This document shows, piece after piece, positions 1 through 62,600 of a stretch of DNA of 64,000 bases. This DNA comes from Chiloscyllium plagiosum (taxonomy: Eukaryota). The stretch spans positions 76,712,129 through 76,776,128 of the forward strand of contig NC_057718.1 in assembly GCF_004010195.1 (NCBI RefSeq), read 5' to 3'. Under the pieces are notes generated by a model that saw nothing but the letters and a program-made list of their open reading frames with translations, was not told the DNA's origin and ran no database searches. The position numbers were made by a program, and so were the translations under genes. The first letter of the stretch is position 1. Every line of letters begins with the position of its first letter.

Positions 1-515
1 CCTTCCTATCGGAAAGATGTTGTGAAACTTGAAAGGGTTCAGAAAAGATTTACAAGGATGTTGCCAGGTTGGAGGATTTGAGCTATAAGGAGAGGCTGAA
101 CAGGCTGGGGCTGTTTTCCCTGGAACATCGGAGGCTGAGGGGTGCCCATATAAAGGTTTACAAAATTATGAGGGGCATGGAGAGGGTAAATAGGCAAAGT
201 CTTTTCCCTGGGGTCGGGGATTCCAGAACTAGGTTTAGGGTGAGAGCAGAAAGATATAAAAGAGACCTAAGGGGTAACTTGTTCACACAGAGGGTGGTAT
301 GGGTATGGAATGAACTGCCAGAGAAAGTGGTGGAGGCTGGTACAATTGCAACATTTAAGAGGCATTTGGATGGGTATATGAATAGGAAGGGTTTGGAGGG
401 ATATGGGCCAGGTGCTGGCAGGTAGGACTAGGTTGGGTTGGGATATCTGGTCAGCATGGACAGGTTGGACTGAAGGGTCTGTTTCCATGCTGTACATCTC
501 GATGACTCTATGACA
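1..515 (+). mobile_element. CR1-type LINE 3' end (ORF2 C-terminus, 3'UTR, tail)
   Basis: LSYKERLNRLGLFSLEHRRLRG...FTQRVVWVWNELP is the typical CR1 ORF2 C-terminus; ATGACTCTATGAC tail; closely similar to 27193-27718. Confidence 0.9.
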
Positions 516-7520: not shown

Positions 7521-8800
7521 AGCTGAAAAATGTGTTGCTGGAAAAGCACAGCAGGTCAGGCAGCATCAAAGGAACAAGAGAATCGACATTTCTGGCATAA
7601 GCCCTTCTTCAGGAATGAGGAGGGTGTGCCAAGCAGGCTAAGATAAAAGGTAGGGAGGAAGGACTTGGGGGAGGGGCGTTGGGAATGCGATAGGTGGGAG
7701 GAGGTTAAGGTGAGGGTGATAGGCTGGAGAGGGGTTGGGGGCGGAGAGGTCAGGAAGAAGATTGCAGGCCAAGAAGGCGGTGCTGAGNNNNNNNNNNNNN
7801 NNNNNNNNNNNNNNNNNNNNNNNNNNNNNNNNNNNNNNNNNNNNNNNNNNNNNNNNNNNNNNNNNNNNNNNNNNNNNNNNNNNNNNNNNNNNNNNNNNNN
7901 NNNNNNNNNNNNNNNNNNNNNNNNNNNNNNNNNNNNNNNNNNNNNNNNNNNNNNNNNNNNNNNNNNNNNNNNNNNNNNNNNNNNNNNNNNNNNNNNNNNN
8001 NNNNNNNNNNNNNNNNNNNNNNNNNNNNNNNNNNNNNNNNNNNNNNNNNNNNNNNNNNNNNNNNNNNNNNNNNNNNNNNNNNNNNNNNNNNNNNNNNNNN
8101 NNNNNNNNNNNNNNNNNNNNNNNNNNNNNNNNNNNNNNNNNNNNNNNNNNNNNNNNNNNNNNNNNNNNNNNNNNNNNNNNNNNNNNNNNNNNNNNNNNNN
8201 NNNNNNNNNNNNNNNNNNNNNNNNNNNNNNNNNNNNNNNNNNNNNNNNNNNNNNNNNNNNNNNNNNNNNNNNNNNNNNNNNNNNNNNNNNNNNNNNNNNN
8301 NNNNNNNNNNNNNNNNNNNNNNNNNNNNNNNNNNNNNNNNNNNNNNNNNNNNNNNNNNNNNNNNNNNNNNNNNCGGTATTGGAATTGGTCCTCCTGGGGG
8401 CAGATGCGGTGGAGGCGAAGGAATTGGGAATATGGGATGGCGTTTTTACAGGGGGCAGGGTGGGAGGAGGTGTAATCTAGGTAGCTGTGGGAGTTGGTTG
8501 ATTTATAATAAACGTCTGTGTTGAGTTGGTCGTCCAAGATAGAAATGGAGAGGCCTAGGAAGGGGAGGGAGGAGTCTGAGACGGTCCAGGTAAATTTGAG
8601 GTCAGGGTGGAAGGTGTTGGTAAAGTGGATGAACTGTTCAATCTCCTCGTGGGAGCGCGAGGTAGCGCCAATACAGTCATCGATGTAGCGGAGGAAAAGG
8701 TGGGGGGTGGTGCCAGTGTAGCTGTGGAAGATGGACTGTTCCACATATCCGACGAAGAGGCAGGCATAGCTGGGGCCTATGCGGGTGCCCATGGCTATTC
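7521..8800 (-). mobile_element. Penelope-like element: RT fragment plus 3' terminus, spanning gap 7788-8373
   Basis: MGTRIGPSYACLFVGYVE...LRYIDDCIG...FHPDLKFT...DVYYKST is a PLE-type RT; the terminus matches other PLE ends in this window; possible CTTCAA duplication at 7515 and 8801. Confidence 0.9.
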
Positions 8801-13780: not shown

Positions 13781-14530
13781 CCAACCCAACCACCCCGTGG
13801 CTCAACACTTCAACTCCCCCTCCCACTCCACCAAGGACATGCAGGTCCTTGGACTCCTCCATCGCCAGACCATAGCAACATGACGGTTGGAGGAAGAGCG
13901 CCTCATCTTCCGCCTAGGAACCCTCCAACCACAAGGGATGAACACAGATNNNNNNNNNNNNNNNNNNNNNNNNNNNNNNNNNNNNNNNNNNNNNNNNNNN
14001 NNNNNNNNNNNNNNNNNNNNNNNNNNNNNNNNNNNNNNNNNNNNNNNNNNNNNNNNNNNNNNNNNNNNNNNNNNNNNNNNNNNNNNNNNNNNNNNNNNNN
14101 NNNNNNNNNNNNNNNNNNNNNNNNNNNNNNNNNNNNNNNNNNNNNNNNNNNNNNNNNNNNNNNNNNNNNNNNNNNNNNNNNNNNNNNNNNNNNNNNNNNN
14201 NNNNNNNNNNNNNNNNNNNNNNNNNNNNNNNNNNNNNNNNNNNNNNNNNNNNNNNNNNNNNNNNNNNNNNNNNNNNNNNNNNNNNNNNNNNNNNNNNNNN
14301 NNNNNNNNNNNNNNNNNNNNNNNNNNNNNNNNTTCCAATGCCCCTCGCCCAAGTCCCTCCTCCCTACCTTTTATCTTAGCCTGCTGGACACACTTTCCTC
14401 ATTCCTGAAGAAGAGCTTATGCCCGAAACGTTGATTCTCCTGTTCCTTGGATGCTGCCTGACCTGCTGCGCTTTTCCAGCAACACATTTTCAGCTCTGAT
14501 CTCCAGCATCTGCAGTCCTCACTTTCTCCT
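13781..14530 (+). mobile_element. Penelope-like element 3' part (GIY-YIG C-terminus plus terminus with tail), spanning gap 13950-14332
   Basis: VAQHFNSPSHSTKDMQVLGL...LEEERLIFRLGTLQPQGMN; the terminus has CTGAAGA...GAAACG and tail GATCTCCAGCATCTGCAGTCCTCACTTTCTCC. Confidence 0.9.
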
Positions 14531-16568: not shown

Positions 16569-16765
16569 GAGGAGAAAGTGAGGTCTGCAGATGCTGGAGA
16601 TCAAAGTTGAAACTTTATTGCTGGAACAGCACAGCAGGTCAGGCAGCATCCAGGGAACAGGAGATTCGACGTTTCGGGCACAGGCCCTGTGCCCGAAACG
16701 TCGAATCTCCTGTTCCCTGGATGCTGCCTGACCTGCTGTGCTGTTCCAGCAATAAAGTTTCAACT
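16569..16765. mobile_element. Fold-back Penelope-terminus mini-element with perfect 80-bp arms and TSD
   Basis: Arms 16605-16684 and 16686-16765; TACTGCAAAGATTT at 16555-16568 and 16765-16778. Confidence 0.9.
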
Positions 16766-29539: not shown

Positions 29540-30485
29540 CACACCTTTGCCCTTGAACCCTACCCCTCCAACCGCAACAAGGATAGAACGCCTCTGGTCC
29601 TCACCTTCCACCCCATTAATCGCCAAATACAGGGCATTATCCTCCACCATTTCCACCAACTACAATCAGACTCCACCAAAGATATATTTCCCTTTCCACC
29701 CCTATCTGTGTTCCGCTGAGACTATTTCCTCCATGACTCCTCATTAGGTTAACCCCCACCAACCCATCCTCCATACCTTACACCTTCCCCTGCCGCCGCA
29801 GGAGGTGTAAAACCTGCACCAACACCTCCCACCTCACCTGCATCCAAGGTCCCAAAGGATCTTTTCACGTCCAGCAGAGACTTTCCTGCAAATCTACCCA
29901 CCTTATCCATAGCTCTCAATTTGGTCTCCTCTACATCGGGGAGCCAGGATGTCAATTCACGGAGTGTTTAAGGGAACATCTCTGGGACACATGCACCAAA
30001 CAACCCTACCGCACTGCGGCCAATCACTTCAATTCCCCCTCCCACTCCCCTAAGGACATGCAAGTCCTGGGCCTCCTCCACTGCCAAATCGAAGTCACCC
30101 CACCAACTGGAAGAAGAATGCCTTATCTTCCATCTTGGGACCATTCAATCACACAGCATCAACACTGCCTTCACCAGTTTCCAAATCTCCCCTCCCCCAA
30201 CCTCATCCCAAATCCAACCGTCCAACTCAACACCACCCTCTTGACCTGTCCATCTTCCTTCCCACCTATCCGCTCCACCCTCCCCACCAACCTATCACCT
30301 TTACCTCATACCCGCATCCACCTATTGCCTTCTCAGATACTTTTCCCCCAGCCCCACCTCACCCACCTATTTATCTCTCAGCCTTCTTCCCCCTACACAT
30401 TCCTGATGAAGGGTTTATGGCCGAAACATTGACTCTCTGTCCCTCGGATGCTGCCTGACCTGCTGTGCTTTTCCAGCGCCACACT
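29540..30485 (+). mobile_element. Penelope-like element 3' part (thumb, GIY-YIG, terminus)
   Basis: NKDRTPLVLTFHP, CTCTACATCGGGGAG (LYIGE), DMQVLGL; terminus CTGATGAAGGGTTTATGGCCGAAAC. Confidence 0.88.
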
Positions 30486-36271: not shown

Positions 36272-36464
36272 TGAGAGAAAGTGAGGACTGCAAATGCTGA
36301 AGATCAGAGTCAAAGAGGGCAGTGCTGGAAAAGCACAGCCAGTCAGGCAGCATCCGAGGAGCAGGAGAGTTGATATTTCAGGCATAAGCCCTTCATCAAG
36401 TCGACTCTCCTGTTCCTCGGATGCTGCCTGACCAGCTGTGCATTTCCAGCACCACACTCTTTGA
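36272..36464. mobile_element. Fold-back Penelope-terminus mini-element
   Basis: Imperfect inverted arms; TSD CTCTTACTGGACAT at 36258-36271 and 36465-36478. Confidence 0.88.
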
Positions 36465-41012: not shown

Positions 41013-41829
41013 GTAAGGCCCGCGGCGGGAGCATCGTAAGGTTTTTTTTAGGCTGAGGACAAATGAGGAACAGCACCAATCAAGACATACACTTGTGAAC
41101 CTAATATTATTGGTTTACGTAGGATACACCCCAGATACTAGTACGATCAGCTTTTTTTTTGGTCTGTGTAAATATTTAATTCTGTGGTTATCTGAAAAAT
41201 TGCACATCTGCGAAGTAACATTTCTTTTGGTCTTCGCATGTATCCTTTTGTAGGTGTGCCGTTCCATAATACCTAATGTATACTGAACTAATCTGTAAAC
41301 ATAATTGAAATGTCAATCAATTCCTATTGTCCCCAGTTATGATTGGGGACATTTTTAGGCATTGTTGTGGTGACACCCTGCTTTTAAATGTGAGCACTTT
41401 TTGTACATGGGATCTGGATTGCAGATCCTAAATCTGGATATTTTTAGGTTCCATTTGGAAAGATATTTTCTTCATGGAAATTCTTGCTTTGTATTATCTA
41501 GCAATAGTTTTAATCAAAAATTATCCTCACATTTTGCAAACTACATTTTGTTATTGTTTTTCCTTTTATCAATTGATGCTTCTTTATGTTGGCATTGTTT
41601 TGCAAATTGTTGGCAAGATCAGCAACACAGATAAGGGCAAGGTGTACCATATAAATCTGTATAAATCTTAAATGTAACAATTTTTAAACTACTGAATGTT
41701 TTCAGCCAAATTAATAGTTTTATTGACGTAGTACCTCTTTACAGGATATGTAGTTATTCTTTCACCAACTTTTGGAATTAAACTACTTAAATCATTCCAT
41801 GTGTGAACATGGTCTAGAAGTACTTTTCT

Positions 41830-41987
41830 AGCAGAAAGTGAGGACTGCAGATGCTGGAGATCAGAGCTGAAAAATGTTGCTGGAAAAGTGCAGCAGGTCA
41901 GGCAGCATCAAAGGAGCAGGAGAATCGACGTTTCGGGCATAAGCCTGAAGAAGGGCTTATGCCCGAAATGTTGATTCTCCTGCTCTG
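41830..41987. mobile_element. Fold-back Penelope-terminus mini-element in TMEM30A intron 1
   Basis: TSD GAAGTACTTTTCT at 41817-41829 and 41988-42000; short inverted arms around CTGAAGA. Confidence 0.88.
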
Positions 41988-42129: not shown

Positions 42130-42565
42130 ACTAGGTGAAAGTGAGGACTGCAGATGCTGGAGATCAGAGTCAAGACTAGAGTGGTGCTGGAAAAGCACAG
42201 CAGACCAGGCAGCATCCAAGGAGCAGGAACACTTCAACCCCAGGGCATCACTGTGGACTTCACCAGTTTCCTCATTTCCCCTCCCCCCACCTTACCCCAG
42301 TTCCAACCTGCCAGCTCAGCACCATCCTTATGACCTATCCTACCTGCTAATCTTTCTTCCCGCCTATCTGCTTCATCCCCACCTCCATCCACCTATTACA
42401 CTCTTAGCTACCGTCTCCAAAGCTCCACCCCCTTCCCATTTATCTCTCCTCCCGGTAGGCTCCCTGCCTCATTCGTGATGAAGGACTTTTGCCCAAAACG
42501 TTGATTTTCCTGCTCCTTGGATGCTGCCTAGCCTGCTGTGCTTTTCCAGAACCACTCTAGTCTTG
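42130..42565 (+). mobile_element. Penelope 3' fragment with inverted 5' copy of its terminus, in intron 1
   Basis: TSD ACTCTTTGAAATCT at 42116-42129 and 42566-42579; the interior is PLE ORF end plus C-rich 3'UTR. Confidence 0.88.
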
Positions 42566-44493: not shown

Positions 44494-44698
44494 AAAAGAT
44501 GCTCGAATCTTAAACCAAAAGATAAAATGCTAGAAAATCTCAGCAGGTCTGGCAGCATATGTAAGGAGAAAAAAGAGCTGAAGTTTTGAGTCTAACTGAC
44601 TCTTTGACAAAGGGTCAGTTCAACTCGAAATGTCAGCTCTTTTCTCTCCTTACAGATGCTGCTGGACATGCTGAGATTTTCCAGCATTTTCTCTTTTG
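44494..44698. mobile_element. Third-family fold-back PLE-terminus element in intron 1
   Basis: Imperfect inverted arms (AAAATGCTAGAAAATCTCAGCAG / TGCTGAGATTTTCCAGCATTTT); TSD ATGGATGTTAAT at 44482-44493 and 44699-44710. Confidence 0.8.
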
Positions 44699-56869: not shown

Positions 56870-59010
56870 GGGTCCAGTGACTGTTTGTTTTTTCAGAACT
56901 GAAAATAACAGGGAAAGTCTGGTATTTATTTATGTTGGTGGGGGAGGGGCAAGTGAATAGAGTACATGGAGAATGTGTCCAGAGAGAGAGTGAAGATGGG
57001 GCTAGGCAACCGGAGATTGCTGCTGATAAACTGAGAAAAATGAATGTTAGGTAGGGTACTAAGAGAAGTGTAAATGGTTGAAATTGGGTTGGATGTGCTG
57101 GGGACAAACCAATGAAACGGGATTTAGATGTGTGAGGTAGTTAACAAACATAGAGGACGATGTTCACATTCTGAAATTGTTAAACTCAGTAAGTCCTGAA
57201 GGCTGTAAAGGTGCTGAGGTGGAAGATGATGTATTGGTCCAGATTGTGTTCAGTCTTGCTGGAACAATGCAGCAGGCCTGAGACAGCGATGTTGGAATGG
57301 GAACACAATGGTGCTTTGAAGTGGCAGGCAACTGTAAGCTTGAGGTCATTTTTATAGGTAACGCTTAGGTGTTCAGCAAGCAGTAATCCTGTCTGCGTTT
57401 CATCTCCCTTATATAGAGGAGATCACATTATGAGCAGCGAGTATTGTTTTGGATGATATAATTAAAGGTGGGTCTGGGACCTGGAATAGTGAAAAGGAAG
57501 AAGGTAAATGAGCAACTGTTGCACCTTCTACGATTGCATGGGAAGTGCCATAGGGATGTGATAGTTGCTAGGAGTGGAGGAGAATGGACCAAGGTGTTCT
57601 GAAGGGAATGGCCCTGTGGAATGTTTTCAAGGAAGGGAGGGGGATTTGTGTCTGGCGGTGGCAGTGACAGCTTATGATCCTTAGGGTATGGTGGCTGGTG
57701 GGATTGAAAGTGAGCATCAGGTGGACTTATGGGCTGAGGGCAGAGAAGGGGTGAGGGCAGAAGTGTTGGAAATGGGTCAAACACAGCTGAAGGCTGTCAA
57801 CCACGGTAGGTCTGTAAGGGAAAAAAAGGTAGACGTTTCTTCGGCATTTATTGAAATGGATGCATAAGAGAAACTGAGAGAATGGAATGGAGTCCTTACA
57901 GGGAGCAGAGGGTGTAAAGATGTATAGTCAAGGTAATTGTGGGAATCTGTGGGTTCGGTAATGGATATTGGTGGCCAGTTTATCCTCAGAAATAGAACCT
58001 GAGATATCAAGGAAGGGAAAGGAGGAATCTGAGCTGGGTCAGGTGAAACTGAGAGCAAGGCAAAAATTGGAAGCAAAACTGATAAATTTTCCAATTCCGA
58101 ATGAGAGGTGGTATGGTAGCTCAGTGGTTAGCACTTCTACCTCACATTGTCAGGGACCTTCGGCAACTGTCTGTGTGGAATTTGCACGTTCTCCCCGTGT
58201 TCCATGTAACCCACAAAGTCTCAAACTGAGGCCCATGTGGATTCCCGTGACTGCACATTTGACATTGAGAAAGTGAGGGGAGTCAAAGGAGTTGTTGCTC
58301 AAAGTGGGGACGAGTTTGGCAAGGTGAAGGAAGTTGCTGGTGGATGGGGATGGTTCAGGATTTCTCTCATAGAAGAATTGGAGAGCCCTCAGATCACCTT
58401 GATGGGGGATAGATGTGAAGAGGATGTGGCGGGTGTCAGATGAATCATAGATATACGTGGAAAGAAATGGACAAGGGAAGAGAAAATCAAGTCAAGGTAG
58501 AAAGAAAAAGGTTTTATGGGGCAGGAACAATCTGAAAACAATGAGTCTGCCTGGGCATTCCTGTAGATGTCCCTAAATGAGATTAAGTTAGTCACAGTTG
58601 TGGAAACAATAGCTTGATGTTTGGAAGAGAAAATCAAGTCAAGGTAGAAAGGAAAAGGTTTTATGGGGCAGGAACAATGAGTCTGCCTGGGCATTCCTGT
58701 AGATGTCCCTAAATGAGATTAAGTTAGTCACAGTTGTGGAAACAATAGCTTGATGTTTGATGGTAAGATCATAGGAGGAGATGTCAGAGAGCTGTTGCAC
58801 AGCCTCCGCAAGGTATTTGTCAGTACAGCAGACAACATCAGCACCACCCTTGTCAGCAGGTTTGATTACAAAGTCAGGGTTGGATCCGAGAACTCATGGA
58901 AAAATAAGTTACAAGGACATTAAGTTAAAATGGGTCAGGGGAGTAGAGAAATTTAAGGTGGCTAATCTCTCAACTACAGCTCTCAATCGACATGTCAACT
59001 GCAAGTAAGG
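56870..59010 (-). mobile_element. Old Penelope-like element (RT to GIY-YIG), with HE1 fragment at about 58105-58200 and an internal tandem duplication
   Basis: PTDSHNYLDYTSLHP, FPCNRRRC, LQPSGL..EFNNFR. Confidence 0.75.
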
Positions 59011-59186
59011 GACCCAGCTGGAGAGAGAGTAAGAGGTGGGTAAAGCATTCTGTGGGATGGGGAGAGGACTCGTGGGCATGGATGCCAAAACATTGAAAGA
59101 AGAGTTTGAAGTCATGGTTTGCCTGAAATTCATTGTGGTAGGCGTATAAAGGGATAAAATCACATCCTTTGCTGAGTACAGATGCT

Positions 59187-59650
59187 TCAGCATCCAAGGA
59201 GGAGGAGAATCGACGTTTCAGGCATAAGCCCTTCTTCAGTAATGAGGAGGGCATGCCAAGCAGGCTGAGATAAAAGGTAGGGAGGAGGGGCGTTGGGAAT
59301 GCGATAGGTGGAAAGAGGTTAAGGTGAGGGTGATAGGCCGGAGAGGGGGTGGGCGCGGAGAGGTCAGGAAGAAGATTGCAGGTCAAGAAGGCGGGGCTGA
59401 GTCCGAGACTTGGGACTGAGATATGGTGAGGAGAGGGGAAATGAAGAAGCTGGAGAAATCTGCATTCATCCCTAGGTGTTGTGTTGCCATGGTCTGGCGA
59501 TGGAGGAGGCCAAGGACCTGCATGTCCTTAGCGGAATGAGAGGGGGAGTTAAAGTGTTCAGCCACGGGGCGGTTGGGTTGGTTGGTGCGGGTGTCTGTTC
59601 TCTGAAATGTTCCGCAAGTAGGCGGCCTGTCTCCCCAATGTAGAGGAGAC
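59187..59650 (-). mobile_element. Young Penelope-like 3' fragment (GIY-YIG plus terminus), in intron 3
   Basis: LLYIGETGRLLAEHFRE, AEHFNSPSHSAKDMQVLGL; the 3'UTR is closely similar to 7560-7787. Confidence 0.9.
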
Positions 59651-62600
59651 TTCTATAGAGTACTTGATCCAAAATTGTTCTCTGGGAACTGTCTGCCACA
59701 CAGTCTGAAAAACATCCATCTGCTGCCAACCTTTTTCTTCTTGTCACTAGCCAATTTTAAATTTATGCTGCAACTCTTCCTTTAATTCTGTGGTCTTCCA
59801 TATTCTCAATAAAGGCCTGTGTGGTTCTTCCAAAAGTTAGTGCATCCATCAACTGTACCATCTTGATTGGGCTAATCATATGAGATTTTCCTTTACCAAA
59901 TACACACTGGAACCCCTTAGTTAAGCAGGGTTTTTTGAATGAAAGCTTATTTTGTCTCTGAAATGGTTTCAACTAACTTTCCTGCCACTGACACATATAG
60001 CTGACTGCTCTGTATTTTGGGTCTTATGTTTTGCCCTTTCCTCGAATAGTGCTACAACATCAGCTCAGTCTTTAGTACTGTTCTGGTATCCATTGAGGAC
60101 TGAAAGATTTTGACCAAAGTCCGTAAGTGGTTTTAGCTATCAAAGAGGAATTTCTCAGTGGACTGGATGAGTTACTAACTTAAATTATTATTTTTAGTGT
60201 GTATTTTCTATTGATTATCATCATGTCCATAACTTTTGTCTCTCCTTTTGTAATATTACATTCACATCGTAGAATCAGAATGGTTACACCACAGACCAAA
60301 ACCATTTGAGTCTTTGCTGTCTCACTGTGGTAGTAATTTGCCTGGACTCAATCCTGTCTTTCCCCTATGACCCTGCAATTCTATTTCCTTCAGGTGCTTA
60401 TCTAATTCCCTATTGAAAGCCACAATTAAATCTATTCCATTACCCCTTCAGGCTGTATATACCACATCGTCACTATTTGCTAACCAAATTTTTTTTTTAA
60501 CTCGTATCTGTTCTTGTTCTTTTGCCAATTTGTCCCCCTTTTTTCTTAGCCCTCTACCATTGGCAATATTTTCTTCTGTCAATTTAATCTGGACTCCTTA
60601 TGAGTTGAATACCTCTGCAACCTTCTGTGTGGAACTTCCCAGCAGTTGTTGGCTGAGGTGACCTGTAGCATTCTTCTTGCCAACTTGAGGTTGCGGGAAC
60701 CCCTGGTGGCAAACTGACTATGGGAGAGTTTCTTTCGGATTTGGCAAGAAGGATGTTGTATAGAATAGTCCTGTACAATACATGGATTTGCAGGCTGCCT
60801 GGAATTCTTGCGGCCTTGTGTCAGTGTTTCCTGTTTATGTTGAATGCGTAGTGTTACAGGACCCAAATTTCAACCTTTATCTTCAAGCTTTGGCTGCACC
60901 ATAGCAACACACTCCTGACCTTTGGTAATCCAACATGGAGAGGGTAGGCAAAGAGAGGAATTTTTCCTAATCTGCTTCTGGGCCTGGCCATGCTGGTCAG
61001 AAACAAGTTCAGGCAGTGAGTAGTTGAGGTGGTAATTTAACCCAGCTGCCTGCCTGTCTTTTATGGCTAAATTCATGCCTGGATCTCCCTGGTGAAGAGA
61101 ATTTGGTCTTCATCAGTACACTGAATTCCAATAATTTGCCCACCACAGAGAGAAGATTAGCGTATAATTATTTGGCTTATCCCTAATATCATTTTTGAAT
61201 AATGTATAATATTTGCAGAATTCCAACCTTTTTTTATCTTGCCTGTAACAAATGAGGGTTGGATCCTCTGAGAATCCGTATTTCCTCTCTAGCTTCCTTT
61301 ATCTCATCCTAGATTACAAGTCATCTACCTTCAAGGACATCAGTCCCTCCATTGGTTCTCTTGTCTAATATTTCACACTCTCTTTAATGAGAGTGCCCAC
61401 ATCATCCCTAACTTTGTGAAGTTAGGAACAAACTGTGCCTGATCAACCTGCACTCTTAATAAACAGTCAAAAAATTATATACCTCAGATACCATGAACTA
61501 ATGTGATGTCCAAGCAGTTACACTGTAAATAAAGTATAACAGTGATATGTATACCTCCTGAATTATGTTTCTATTACTTAGTGTGCTTTTACATTGATTT
61601 TAGGAGATGTGTTGATGTTTTTACATAGATTTTTTGAGGAATGTGGCTGCCTTGAAACTTTGCTTGGTCAGCGTTACTGCAGTTATGCGGACTGTATCTT
61701 CTGATTATCCTGAATATTTGAGCAACGAGCACACTCCTGGTCCCATAGTGTCAGGGGATCATATTCACTTGCCTATTATTTGCTACCTTATCAAAGAATG
61801 TCCTGGAATCTCTTATAGAACCAGATTAAAACCGGCATTTCTTCAAGTCAACCACAGTTCAAAAATGGCCCCAGCAGGGGTTTACTTCAAAGCCGTATCA
61901 ACAGTCATGTGATTTGCAGGCAGACATTTAAAACAAAACTATGCCCTCTTTTCAGTGACGTCTTTTTAAGGAAATCCACTTCCCGAAGCTTGAAATAATT
62001 CAATTTTCCATAATCTTTTAAAACTTGGTCGTTCAAGCCATTGTTAAATATAAAATGTTTTGGTGACACTATCCATTCTGCTATCTGTCAGCATGGTGTC
62101 AGGGGATCATATTCACTTGCCTATTATTTGCTACCTTATCAAAGAATGTCCTGAAATCTCAAATGTATTTATCTACTACATTATCTCTGACTAATCCCAT
62201 CTTTCTGTACCACCCATCTGTAATTTTTGTCATAAGGTAGGAACAGGACTTTCATTTTCATATTTACATGGTTGTAGATCACTTGCTATTTTATTTTTTG
62301 TTTCTTGATTTTTTTTTATAGAACTTCTGTAACTTATCTCAAGTCTCTTTGTATTTTCCACATATTGTCTCTTGTTGTCCCTGTACTTAGCATTATCCTT
62401 GATTTTTCTTTTATGTTGTTAGTTATGGTGTTTCAGTAGAGTTCTGAAACGGATATTCTTTTTCCAGGCTCATGTTTCCCATTGCTGTTTTGTACCATTA
62501 TTTGCCTGTTTTAACTTTCCCAGTTAACTGTTCCTCTGTTGGATTTTCTGCACTTCATTTATTTTTTTTTTGTCATGCTTGTATTTTTAGGTTTGCACAT

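What the first reader, a model, noticed from the sequence alone, without database searches (positions are those of the whole stretch)
59212..59239. Minimal hammerhead-ribozyme-like core in Penelope termini, recurring across the window
Seen: the minus strand reads CTGAAGA-A-GGGC-TTAT-GCCT-GAAA-C-GTC. That is CUGANGA, a 4-bp stem II, GAAA, a loopless palindromic ACGU stem III and a GUC cleavage triplet. Related copies lie at 7585-7612 (-), 14405-14432 (+), 30403-30430 (+) and 41945-41972 (+), with decayed ones near 36372-36399 (-) and 42475-42502 (+). Established: PLEs carry minimal type I hammerheads with a very short stem III that can cleave as dimers, and an extra A after A9 occurs in a natural viroid hammerhead. 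Inference: this shark PLE family uses self-cleaving RNA to define its template ends. Caveat: predicted stem I is weak.
Basis: partly seen in the sequence, partly recalled or inferred. Interest (0 to 1): 0.75.

Follow-up and report, generated by a model that had tools for sequence, protein, structure and literature searches.

The report
Penelope hammerhead with U6-marked cut site
This is a decayed copy of a known tiny self-cutting-RNA motif in the end repeat of a very common Penelope-type jumping gene; ordinary copies run straight through the predicted cut site, but nine fusions to the small RNA U6 join exactly there, which likely records the ribozyme cutting in living cells.

Summary
The motif is real. 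It is a minimal type I hammerhead in the pseudo-LTR of a Neptune-like Penelope element: a GIY-YIG remnant lies upstream, and one 43-mer has 8,782 exact genomic hits. This class was described in 2014 (PMC4209133). Across 12 family representatives the core is fixed while stems covary; one family has a compensatory U3-A8 pair. The idea that cleavage defines template ends is not supported for ordinary copies. In 1.22 Mb, 136 of 153 copies span the predicted cut, 0 of 106 end there and 4 of 139 start there. 3' ends sit about 62 and 98 nt downstream (the PLE tail). 5' ends cluster about 4 nt upstream of the core, often after an extra G, probably a capped start. However, 9 of 11 U6-Penelope fusions that I identified join exactly at the predicted scissile bond, in three families. 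This fits ligation of a ribozyme-made 5'-OH end and is indirect evidence of cleavage in vivo. Earlier scan reports on other windows of this genome noted the U6 and cap signals; I re-tested both. The focal copy has lost its first stem I pair and is probably inactive.

The parts
59212..59239 (-). Minimal type I hammerhead core: CUGAAGA, extra A, 4-bp stem II with UUAU loop, GAAA, loopless ACGU stem III, GUC triplet; predicted cut between 59212 and 59211
59240..59243 (-). 5' strand of stem I; position 2.1 (59240) is A where the family has C. 59243 corresponds to the family's predicted transcription start (32 nt upstream of the cut)
   Evidence: start inferred from pile-up of 5' ends and an extra G
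59188..59211 (-). First 24 nt of the pLTR after the cut (59208-59211 = stem I 3' strand); this copy lacks the rest and the tail (family ends at about +62 and +98)
59244..59477 (-). Pyrimidine-rich 3' UTR / upstream part of the pLTR of the same element (limits approximate)
59478..59651 (-). Broken C-terminal GIY-YIG endonuclease remnant (YIGETGR), 80% identical to a family ORF that hits PF01541 (E 3.6e-4, just under the cut-off) and carries a CX5CXXC linker
57955..59194 (-). Older, divergent Penelope RT remnant (34-45% aa identity to the family ORF) abutting the truncated pLTR at a short shared GATGCTG stretch; not the same subfamily
7585..7612 (-). Family copy, 10.1-11.1 pair broken
14405..14432 (+). 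Family copy, stem II mismatch, GUU triplet
30403..30430 (+). Older subfamily copy with upstream endonuclease and RT remnant
41823..41985 (.). Fold-back insertion: inverted arm 41823-41944 (-) joined to the hammerhead 41945-41972 (+)
36275..36458 (.). Fold-back insertion: decayed hammerhead 36372-36399 (-) and inverted arm 36400-36458 (+)
42475..42502 (+). Decayed copy (G3, A12)
16570..16765 (.).
44604..44634 (+).

Best explanation
The motif is a minimal hammerhead in the end repeat (pLTR) of a high-copy Neptune-like Penelope element, and it likely forms the first 36 nucleotides of the element's capped RNA and likely cuts only a minority of transcripts, so that it would trim or inactivate RNAs rather than set the ends of most inserted copies. 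SHOWN: the motif lies downstream of the GIY-YIG remnant and, in longer copies, just upstream of the ORF's N-terminal part. Copies end about 62 or 98 nt past the cut. Short copies begin about 32 nt before it, often after an extra G. U6 fusions join at the scissile bond. INFERRED: transcription starts at the first base of stem I. Reverse transcription is primed internally at the two tail sites on uncut RNA, as shown in vitro for the Anolis element, and either runs off the capped end (short copies, many with fold-back arms) or continues through a read-through second pLTR into the 3' UTR and ORF (copies like the focal one). When two RNAs pair through the ACGU palindrome, probably with help from the element's protein, the ribozyme cuts after GUC. 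This would remove the capped 32-nt head, or cut a read-through RNA upstream of its priming sites, and leave a 5'-OH end. An RtcB-type ligase would occasionally join that end to the cyclic-phosphate end of U6, and the chimera would be retrotransposed.
For: PLE identity: RVT_1 (E 3e-8) and GIY-YIG hits in family ORFs; CX5CXXC linker and YIGETGR; tail-type double 3' ends and inverted 5' arms (73 of 139 copies). Selection on the ribozyme: 12 family representatives keep 2.1-1.1 paired 12 of 12 with three pair types, although stem I was not in the descriptor. Positions 15.2-16.2 read CG in most families and GC in another (76 and 14 hits). One family has U3-A8: 1,712 matches, 99 of the first 100 with A8; U3 in 4 of 4 sample hits and 4 of 5 motifs in four loci. 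Within the focal family, 0 of 11 core positions against 4 of 5 free positions (N7, loop II) carry a common second allele (p 0.003). Ends. Extra G: 61 of the first 100 of 6,885 matches, counted by eye, or 48 of 79 after removing ambiguous fold-backs. U6: a pattern allowing 31 junction positions gave 7 matches at 6 loci, all at the first base after GUC. In total 9 independent loci join at the cut, 2 inside the endonuclease region and none at the -32 start; binomial p about 7e-13 against the 4-of-139 background. RtcB needs U6>P and a 5'-OH (PMC6789731 passages). Anolis ribozyme mutants do not affect insertion and cleavage needs protein (PMC11167929 part 2).
Against: No cleavage was measured. Core versus 3' flank conservation within the family is only suggestive (0 of 11 vs 12 of 50, p 0.07). 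Stem II pairing in the family table is partly circular because the descriptor required it. The predicted active dimer is 5-25 kcal/mol above the dimer minimum in all 7 cases folded, and this family's stem I has only 2 contiguous pairs. About 20 of some 60 U6 ends are followed by a SINE head, so U6 also joins ends that a ribozyme did not make, and template jumping may contribute. My PLE library was partial, so U6 fusions inside other families' RT regions may have been missed and 9 of 11 may be an overestimate. Two of the nine junctions need a caveat: L234 is at the cut only for the GTGTGC subfamily, and L242 has one ambiguous T and a short U6 piece. One single-cell poly(A) run (2,325 laid reads) showed no pile of starts or ends at the cut or at -32; such reads come mostly from host transcripts and are a weak test. 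The regulatory purpose of cleavage is inference only.
Confidence: 0.68

Rival explanations
1. Cut and circularise: tandem transcripts are cut at two successive pLTRs, and the unit-length RNA is ligated into a circle, which regenerates an intact hammerhead at the junction. The circle is the template for copies that extend upstream into the 3' UTR and ORF. Cleavage would then define the unit, but invisibly.
For: Proposed in PMC4209133 (part 2). RtcB circularises hammerhead-cut retrozyme RNAs in vitro (PMC7229834 passages). The U6 fusions suggest that ribozyme-made ends are ligated in this genome. About a quarter of copies extend more than 40 nt upstream of the cut, and a circle would look the same as a read-through RNA.
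Against: It cannot explain the largest class, which starts at -36 to -24 (60 of 139) with an extra G. A search for cross-family chimeras joined at the cut found 0 (one family pair only). Anolis ribozyme mutants insert normally in vitro.
Confidence: 0.2
2. One reading: cleavage directly sets the 5' or 3' end of the linear RNA that is copied into the genome.
For: A pattern for copies starting at the cut gave 157 matches against 38 at -2 and 50 at +2. U6 chimeras begin at the cut.
Against: 136 of 153 copies span the cut; 4 of 139 start within 2 nt of it; 0 of 106 end within 3 nt. In the 30 loci examined, the excess at the cut came mostly from fold-back junctions using a GA microhomology, one-base insertions and internal duplications.
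Confidence: 0.04
3. The motif is kept as a promoter or protein-binding structure and does not cut in vivo; the U6 junctions come from reverse transcriptase stalling at the structure and jumping to U6.
For: It sits right at the probable start site. Predicted stability of the active fold is poor. Published minimal hammerheads cut weakly in vitro, and no RNA-seq reads began at the Anolis cut site.
Against: Stalling should also leave ordinary copies starting at that base, and they are rare. The junction is at the same phosphodiester bond in three families with different stems. It avoids the nearby T-run that offers more microhomology to U6 and the far more common -32 end. The U3-A8 swap and stem III covariation are signatures of catalytic geometry.
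Confidence: 0.08

Closest known systems
Minimal hammerheads (min-HHR) in pLTRs of metazoan Penelope-like elements (Cervera and de la Pena 2014, PMC4209133; parts 1-2 of 4 read)
   Same: Type I topology, no loop 3 with palindromic 15.2-16.2, extra nucleotide between 9 and 10.1, G10.1-C11.1, short helix I, many families per genome, mostly dispersed single motifs, opposite-strand pairs, a U3-A8 variant family.
   Different: This family's helix II is only 4 bp and its helix I 2-4 bp. No cartilaginous fish is named in the parts read or in 2 of 3 supplements searched. Copy number is far higher (roughly 4e5 pLTR pieces by extrapolation from 153 in 1.22 Mb).
PAc, Poseidon of Anolis carolinensis (Frangieh et al. 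2024, PMC11167929; parts 1-2 of 4 read)
   Same: Hammerhead at the pLTR-ORF junction; two reverse transcription start sites downstream of the cut that give the 30-40 nt tail; uncut RNA as the main template.
   Different: The element here is Neptune-like (zinc-finger linker). PAc activity was shown in vitro with protein, and no reads starting at the cut were found. Here the only evidence of cutting is genomic (U6 fusions).
U6/LINE-1 chimeric pseudogenes made by RtcB ligation (Moldovan et al. 2019, PMC6789731; passages read)
   Same: U6 ending in a T-run joined to a retroelement RNA and then retrotransposed; needs a 5'-OH partner.
   Different: For L1 the nuclease is unknown and junctions vary; here they fall on one bond that the element's own ribozyme is predicted to cut.
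Non-LTR retrozymes (PMC7229834, passages; bioRxiv 10.64898/2026.07.22.740005, abstract and passages)
   Same: Type I hammerheads related to pLTRs; reported in the one chondrichthyan sampled.
   Different: Retrozymes are tandem arrays that give circular RNAs; the copies here are dispersed ends of an autonomous PLE, often with inverted arms.

Membership tests
Minimal type I hammerhead of PLE pLTRs | Core CUGANGA ... GAAA ... NUH in type I order | tested here: met
Minimal type I hammerhead of PLE pLTRs | Helix II with G10.1-C11.1 and covariation between families | tested here: met
   (11 of 12 G-C, one G-U; different stems per family; pairing partly required by the descriptor)
Minimal type I hammerhead of PLE pLTRs | Palindromic 15.2-16.2 without loop 3 | tested here: met
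   CG 76 and GC 14 of 129 descriptor hits; most others are CpG decay
Minimal type I hammerhead of PLE pLTRs | One extra nucleotide between 9 and 10.1 | tested here: met
   125 of 129 hits
Minimal type I hammerhead of PLE pLTRs | Short helix I | tested here: met
   2.1-1.1 paired in 12 of 12 families with three pair types; 2 contiguous bp in this family, 4 in the CTGT subfamily, 0 in the focal copy
Minimal type I hammerhead of PLE pLTRs | Self-cleavage as a dimer or with protein help | not testable with these tools
   indirect only: U6 junctions at the scissile bond; folding energies do not favour the active dimer
Endonuclease-bearing Penelope-like element | [quoted passage not shown] | tested here: met
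   PF00078 E 3e-8 in L149; PF01541 E 3.6e-4 in L141, just under the cut-off; order
Endonuclease-bearing Penelope-like element | pLTR with a 30-40 nt tail, 5' truncation, inverted 5' arms | tested here: met
   3' ends at +56..68 and +97..101; 73 of 139 with inverted arms; features as listed in bioRxiv 10.1101/2021.04.23.441226 passages
Neptune clade | CX2-5CXXC zinc-finger linker between RT and endonuclease | tested here: met
   CNHKTCKTC in L141; also present in Nematis
Neptune clade | RT phylogeny | not tested
   no tree built
Non-LTR retrozyme | Head-to-tail arrays of short non-coding units with canonical loop 1-loop 2 contacts | tested here: not met
   window and sampled copies are dispersed or inverted pLTR ends linked to PLE ORF remnants

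The most novel reading that the evidence does not exclude
U6 fusions act as a fossil trap for 5'-OH ends. They record that the minimal Penelope hammerheads, weak in vitro and not shown to cut in vivo in the papers I could read, do cut at the predicted bond in the germ line of this animal, in at least three families. Because the ribozyme occupies the capped head of the RNA and needs a partner RNA, it could be a concentration-sensing decapping switch that limits the element's own activity while uncut RNA is copied.
Probability: 0.45. Interest if true: 0.75.

Novelty: new member of a known kind. Interest (0 to 1): 0.5.

Why it matters
The motif class is known, but its role is open: one review of PLE clades calls hammerhead function in these elements unclear, and the only in vitro system found it dispensable for insertion, with no reads starting at the cut. 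This genome offers hundreds of thousands of copies whose ends can be counted. They argue that ordinary insertions come from uncut RNA, and a handful of U6 chimeras pin an RNA 5' end to the scissile bond. That gives a precise, testable prediction (5'-OH ends and U6 chimeric RNA in gonads) and natural variants (2-bp versus 4-bp stem I, C3-G8 versus U3-A8) for biochemistry.

Tried and rejected
Rfam scan of the window: no hit at gathering threshold. Folding of five single motifs: none stood out from shuffles (z 0.44 to -1.06). Pfam scan of the 41-aa window peptide: no family; identity came from longer family ORFs. Cross-family chimeras joined at the cut (GGAGC-stem 5' half, focal-family 3' half): 0 matches. 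Excess of ordinary copies starting at the cut: 157 vs 38 and 50 at -2 and +2; rejected as evidence because, in 30 of the 157 loci examined, most were fold-backs with GA microhomology, one-base insertions or internal duplications. RNA: no RNA holder listed. Of two raw single-cell runs, one laid 0 reads (no test) and one laid 2,325 with no start or end pile-up; uninformative for 5'-OH ends. Whether U6-pLTR chimeric RNA exists in reads remains untested. Literature: no paper held for U6 snRNA + chimeric + RtcB + hammerhead, Penelope-like + U6 snRNA + chimera or Penelope + hammerhead + elasmobranch. Hammerhead ribozyme + Penelope + shark gave one review (listing only). A cap / untemplated G / strong-stop search gave one unrelated paper. 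Lunse et al. (dimer cleavage) is not held; I rely on its title and on a review's passages (PMC6765202). One supplement of PMC4209133 and all bioRxiv supplements could not be seen and may list shark elements. No covariance model or RT tree was built.

Full report
OBSERVATION. The loose core pattern occurs 17 times in the window against a shuffle mean of 6.1. A strict descriptor (core, paired stem II, GAAA, NUH) finds 64 hits in 640 kb of genome against 0-1 in five shuffles. A 43-mer of the family has 8,782 exact matches in the 3.56-Gb genome, with 0 for the control. Rfam has no model that reaches threshold. All seven window copies are damaged. The focal copy has lost pair 2.1-1.1, so it has no contiguous stem I, and it lacks the pLTR beyond 24 nt after the cut. 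It is best seen as a fossil of an active family.

THE ELEMENT. Upstream of the motif lie a pyrimidine-rich UTR and a broken GIY-YIG remnant at 59478-59651. Relatives found with that peptide contain an RT (PF00078, E 3e-8), a GIY-YIG domain (PF01541, E 3.6e-4, just under the cut-off) and a CX5CXXC linker. That linker marks the Neptune and Nematis clades (bioRxiv 10.1101/2021.04.23.441226, passages); no tree was built. In L028 and L151 the sequence after the hammerhead and tail runs into the ORF's N-terminal region, so the motif sits both at the end of one unit and at the head of the next, as in PLE pseudo-LTRs.

IS IT UNDER SELECTION AS A RIBOZYME? In 1.22 Mb a relaxed descriptor gave 129 hits: 109 with C3-G8, 125 with the extra nucleotide after A9, and 15.2-16.2 reading CG in 76 and GC in 14, most of the rest being CpG decay. 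Among 12 family representatives (single real copies), stem II differs in length and sequence. Pair 2.1-1.1, which the descriptor did not require, is intact in 12 of 12 as C-G, U-A or A-U; 2.2-1.2 and 2.3-1.3 are paired in 9 of 12 each. One family replaces C3-G8 by U3-A8: 1,712 matches, 99 of the first 100 listed with A8, with U3 in 4 of 4 sample hits and 4 of 5 motifs in four loci. Within the focal lineage (112 copies covering the core), common second alleles occur at 0 of 11 core positions, 4 of 5 free positions (p 0.003) and 12 of 50 flank positions (p 0.07). Folding gives no support on its own: z-scores are near zero and the active dimer lies above the predicted minimum in all 7 cases, in line with the low activity reported for this class.

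DOES CLEAVAGE DEFINE THE ENDS? I mapped ends in 120 ten-kb stretches chosen by coordinate plus the window (1.22 Mb). With a downstream anchor, 212 hits were found and 153 passed the family filter (identity at least 0.85, score at least 60; 59 dropped). Of these, 136 span the cut. Of 139 usable 5' ends, 4 lie within 2 nt of the cut and 60 lie at -36 to -24. 3' ends cluster at +56 to +68 and +97 to +101. With an upstream anchor, which would catch copies ending at the cut, 0 of 106 end within 3 nt of it. The two 3' clusters match the PLE tail, which in Anolis corresponds to two internal reverse transcription starts on uncut RNA; there, ribozyme mutants insert normally (PMC11167929 part 2). Among copies beginning at -32, the preceding non-templated base is G in 61 of the first 100 of 6,885 matches (counted by eye), or 48 of 79 after removing ambiguous fold-backs. 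I read this as a copied cap at a start 4 nt before C3. That is inference; the TCATTC resemblance to an initiator is recalled, and an internal Inr/DPE promoter is reported for Drosophila Penelope (PMC2377424, passages). A three-pattern test showed more apparent starts at the cut than at -2 or +2 (157, 38, 50), but in the 30 loci inspected most were fold-backs with GA microhomology or small duplications, so I discard it. A cut-and-religated circle remains possible for copies extending upstream, because ligation rebuilds the same sequence.

DOES IT CUT IN VIVO? Earlier scan notes on other windows of this genome pointed to U6 fusions and to the RtcB paper, and I tested this. A pattern joining the U6 end to the pLTR with 31 possible offsets returned 7 matches at 6 loci, all at the first base after GUC. 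I then examined 76 loci gathered from an Rfam U6 search (48 matches) and two patterns. The script listed 62 U6-like ends, two of them doubtful. Eight independent loci join at the cut: seven in the focal lineage, of which L154 has this family's GATTCTCC, and L234 in the GGAGC-stem family. A ninth (L242, inverted arm, short U6 piece, one ambiguous T) is in a third family. Two fusions fall inside the endonuclease region. None falls at the -32 start, where ordinary copies most often begin. The rest are apparent U6 genes, SINE junctions (about 20) or unassigned, and my library may have missed RT-region fusions. Against a background of 4 in 139, 9 of 11 has p about 7e-13. U6 ends in a cyclic phosphate and RtcB joins it only to 5'-OH ends (PMC6789731, passages), which is the end a hammerhead leaves. 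Ligation or template jumping would both need an RNA end at that bond. Stalling at the structure is less likely because ordinary copies do not pile up there and a nearby T-run with better microhomology is unused. This is indirect evidence. One single-cell poly(A) run showed no start or end peak, which is a weak test, and chimeric RNA was not examined.

MECHANISM. Most likely, the pLTR starts a capped RNA whose first 36 nt are the hammerhead. Uncut RNA is primed at the tail sites and copied back to the cap (short copies, about half with inverted arms) or, from read-through pLTRs, into the ORF. A minority is cut, probably as a dimer with protein help. That would remove the cap or the priming sites and leave a 5'-OH end that is occasionally captured by U6. 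Confidence 0.68; circle model 0.2; no cleavage 0.08; linear end definition 0.04.

NOVELTY. The motif meets every sequence feature of the minimal PLE hammerheads of Cervera and de la Pena (PMC4209133, parts 1-2), including opposite-strand pairs and a U3-A8 variant; it is a new member of a known kind. My searches found no paper on U6-Penelope chimeras or on elasmobranch PLE hammerheads, though a 2026 preprint reports retrozymes in one chondrichthyan and some supplements were not visible. The added value is the genomic evidence on where RNA ends lie and that the bond is likely cut in vivo; the scan had noted this before on other windows of the same genome. Interest 0.5.

Noticed in passing
window 44604-44634 (+); L217-L221: A separate hammerhead family with U3-A8 in place of C3-G8 and a 4-bp AGCU stem I; 1,712 exact matches of its core pattern genome-wide. 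Its ORF was not looked for.
   Followed up: partly
window 57955-59194 (-): An older Penelope RT remnant directly follows the truncated pLTR and shares a GATGCTG stretch at the junction, suggesting microhomology-mediated deletion or insertion into an old copy.
   Followed up: partly
L028:1500-2030: Hammerhead, tail, about 290 nt of the ORF's N-terminal region, then a second hammerhead and tail in the same orientation: a short internally deleted tandem. The distal tail end is a pyrimidine run followed by AG, resembling a 3' splice site (untested).
   Followed up: no
U6 loci L091-L120, L222-L259, L074: About 20 of some 60 U6 3' ends are followed within a few bases by the head of a tRNA-like SINE (name HE1 recalled, not from a call), a second common class of U6 junction.
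   Followed up: no
G000:C16:42817618-42817924: Six matches at about 47-base spacing, each beginning at the predicted cut site: a small tandem array of post-cut pLTR units.
   Followed up: no
window 59660-59760 (-): Fragment that translates like a CR1-type LINE reverse transcriptase (resemblance recalled, not tested), directly 5' of the focal element.
   Followed up: no
L151:1150-1530: A U6 fusion at the cut that continues at least 374 nt into the ORF's N-terminal region, so it was primed far downstream of the tail sites.
   Followed up: partly
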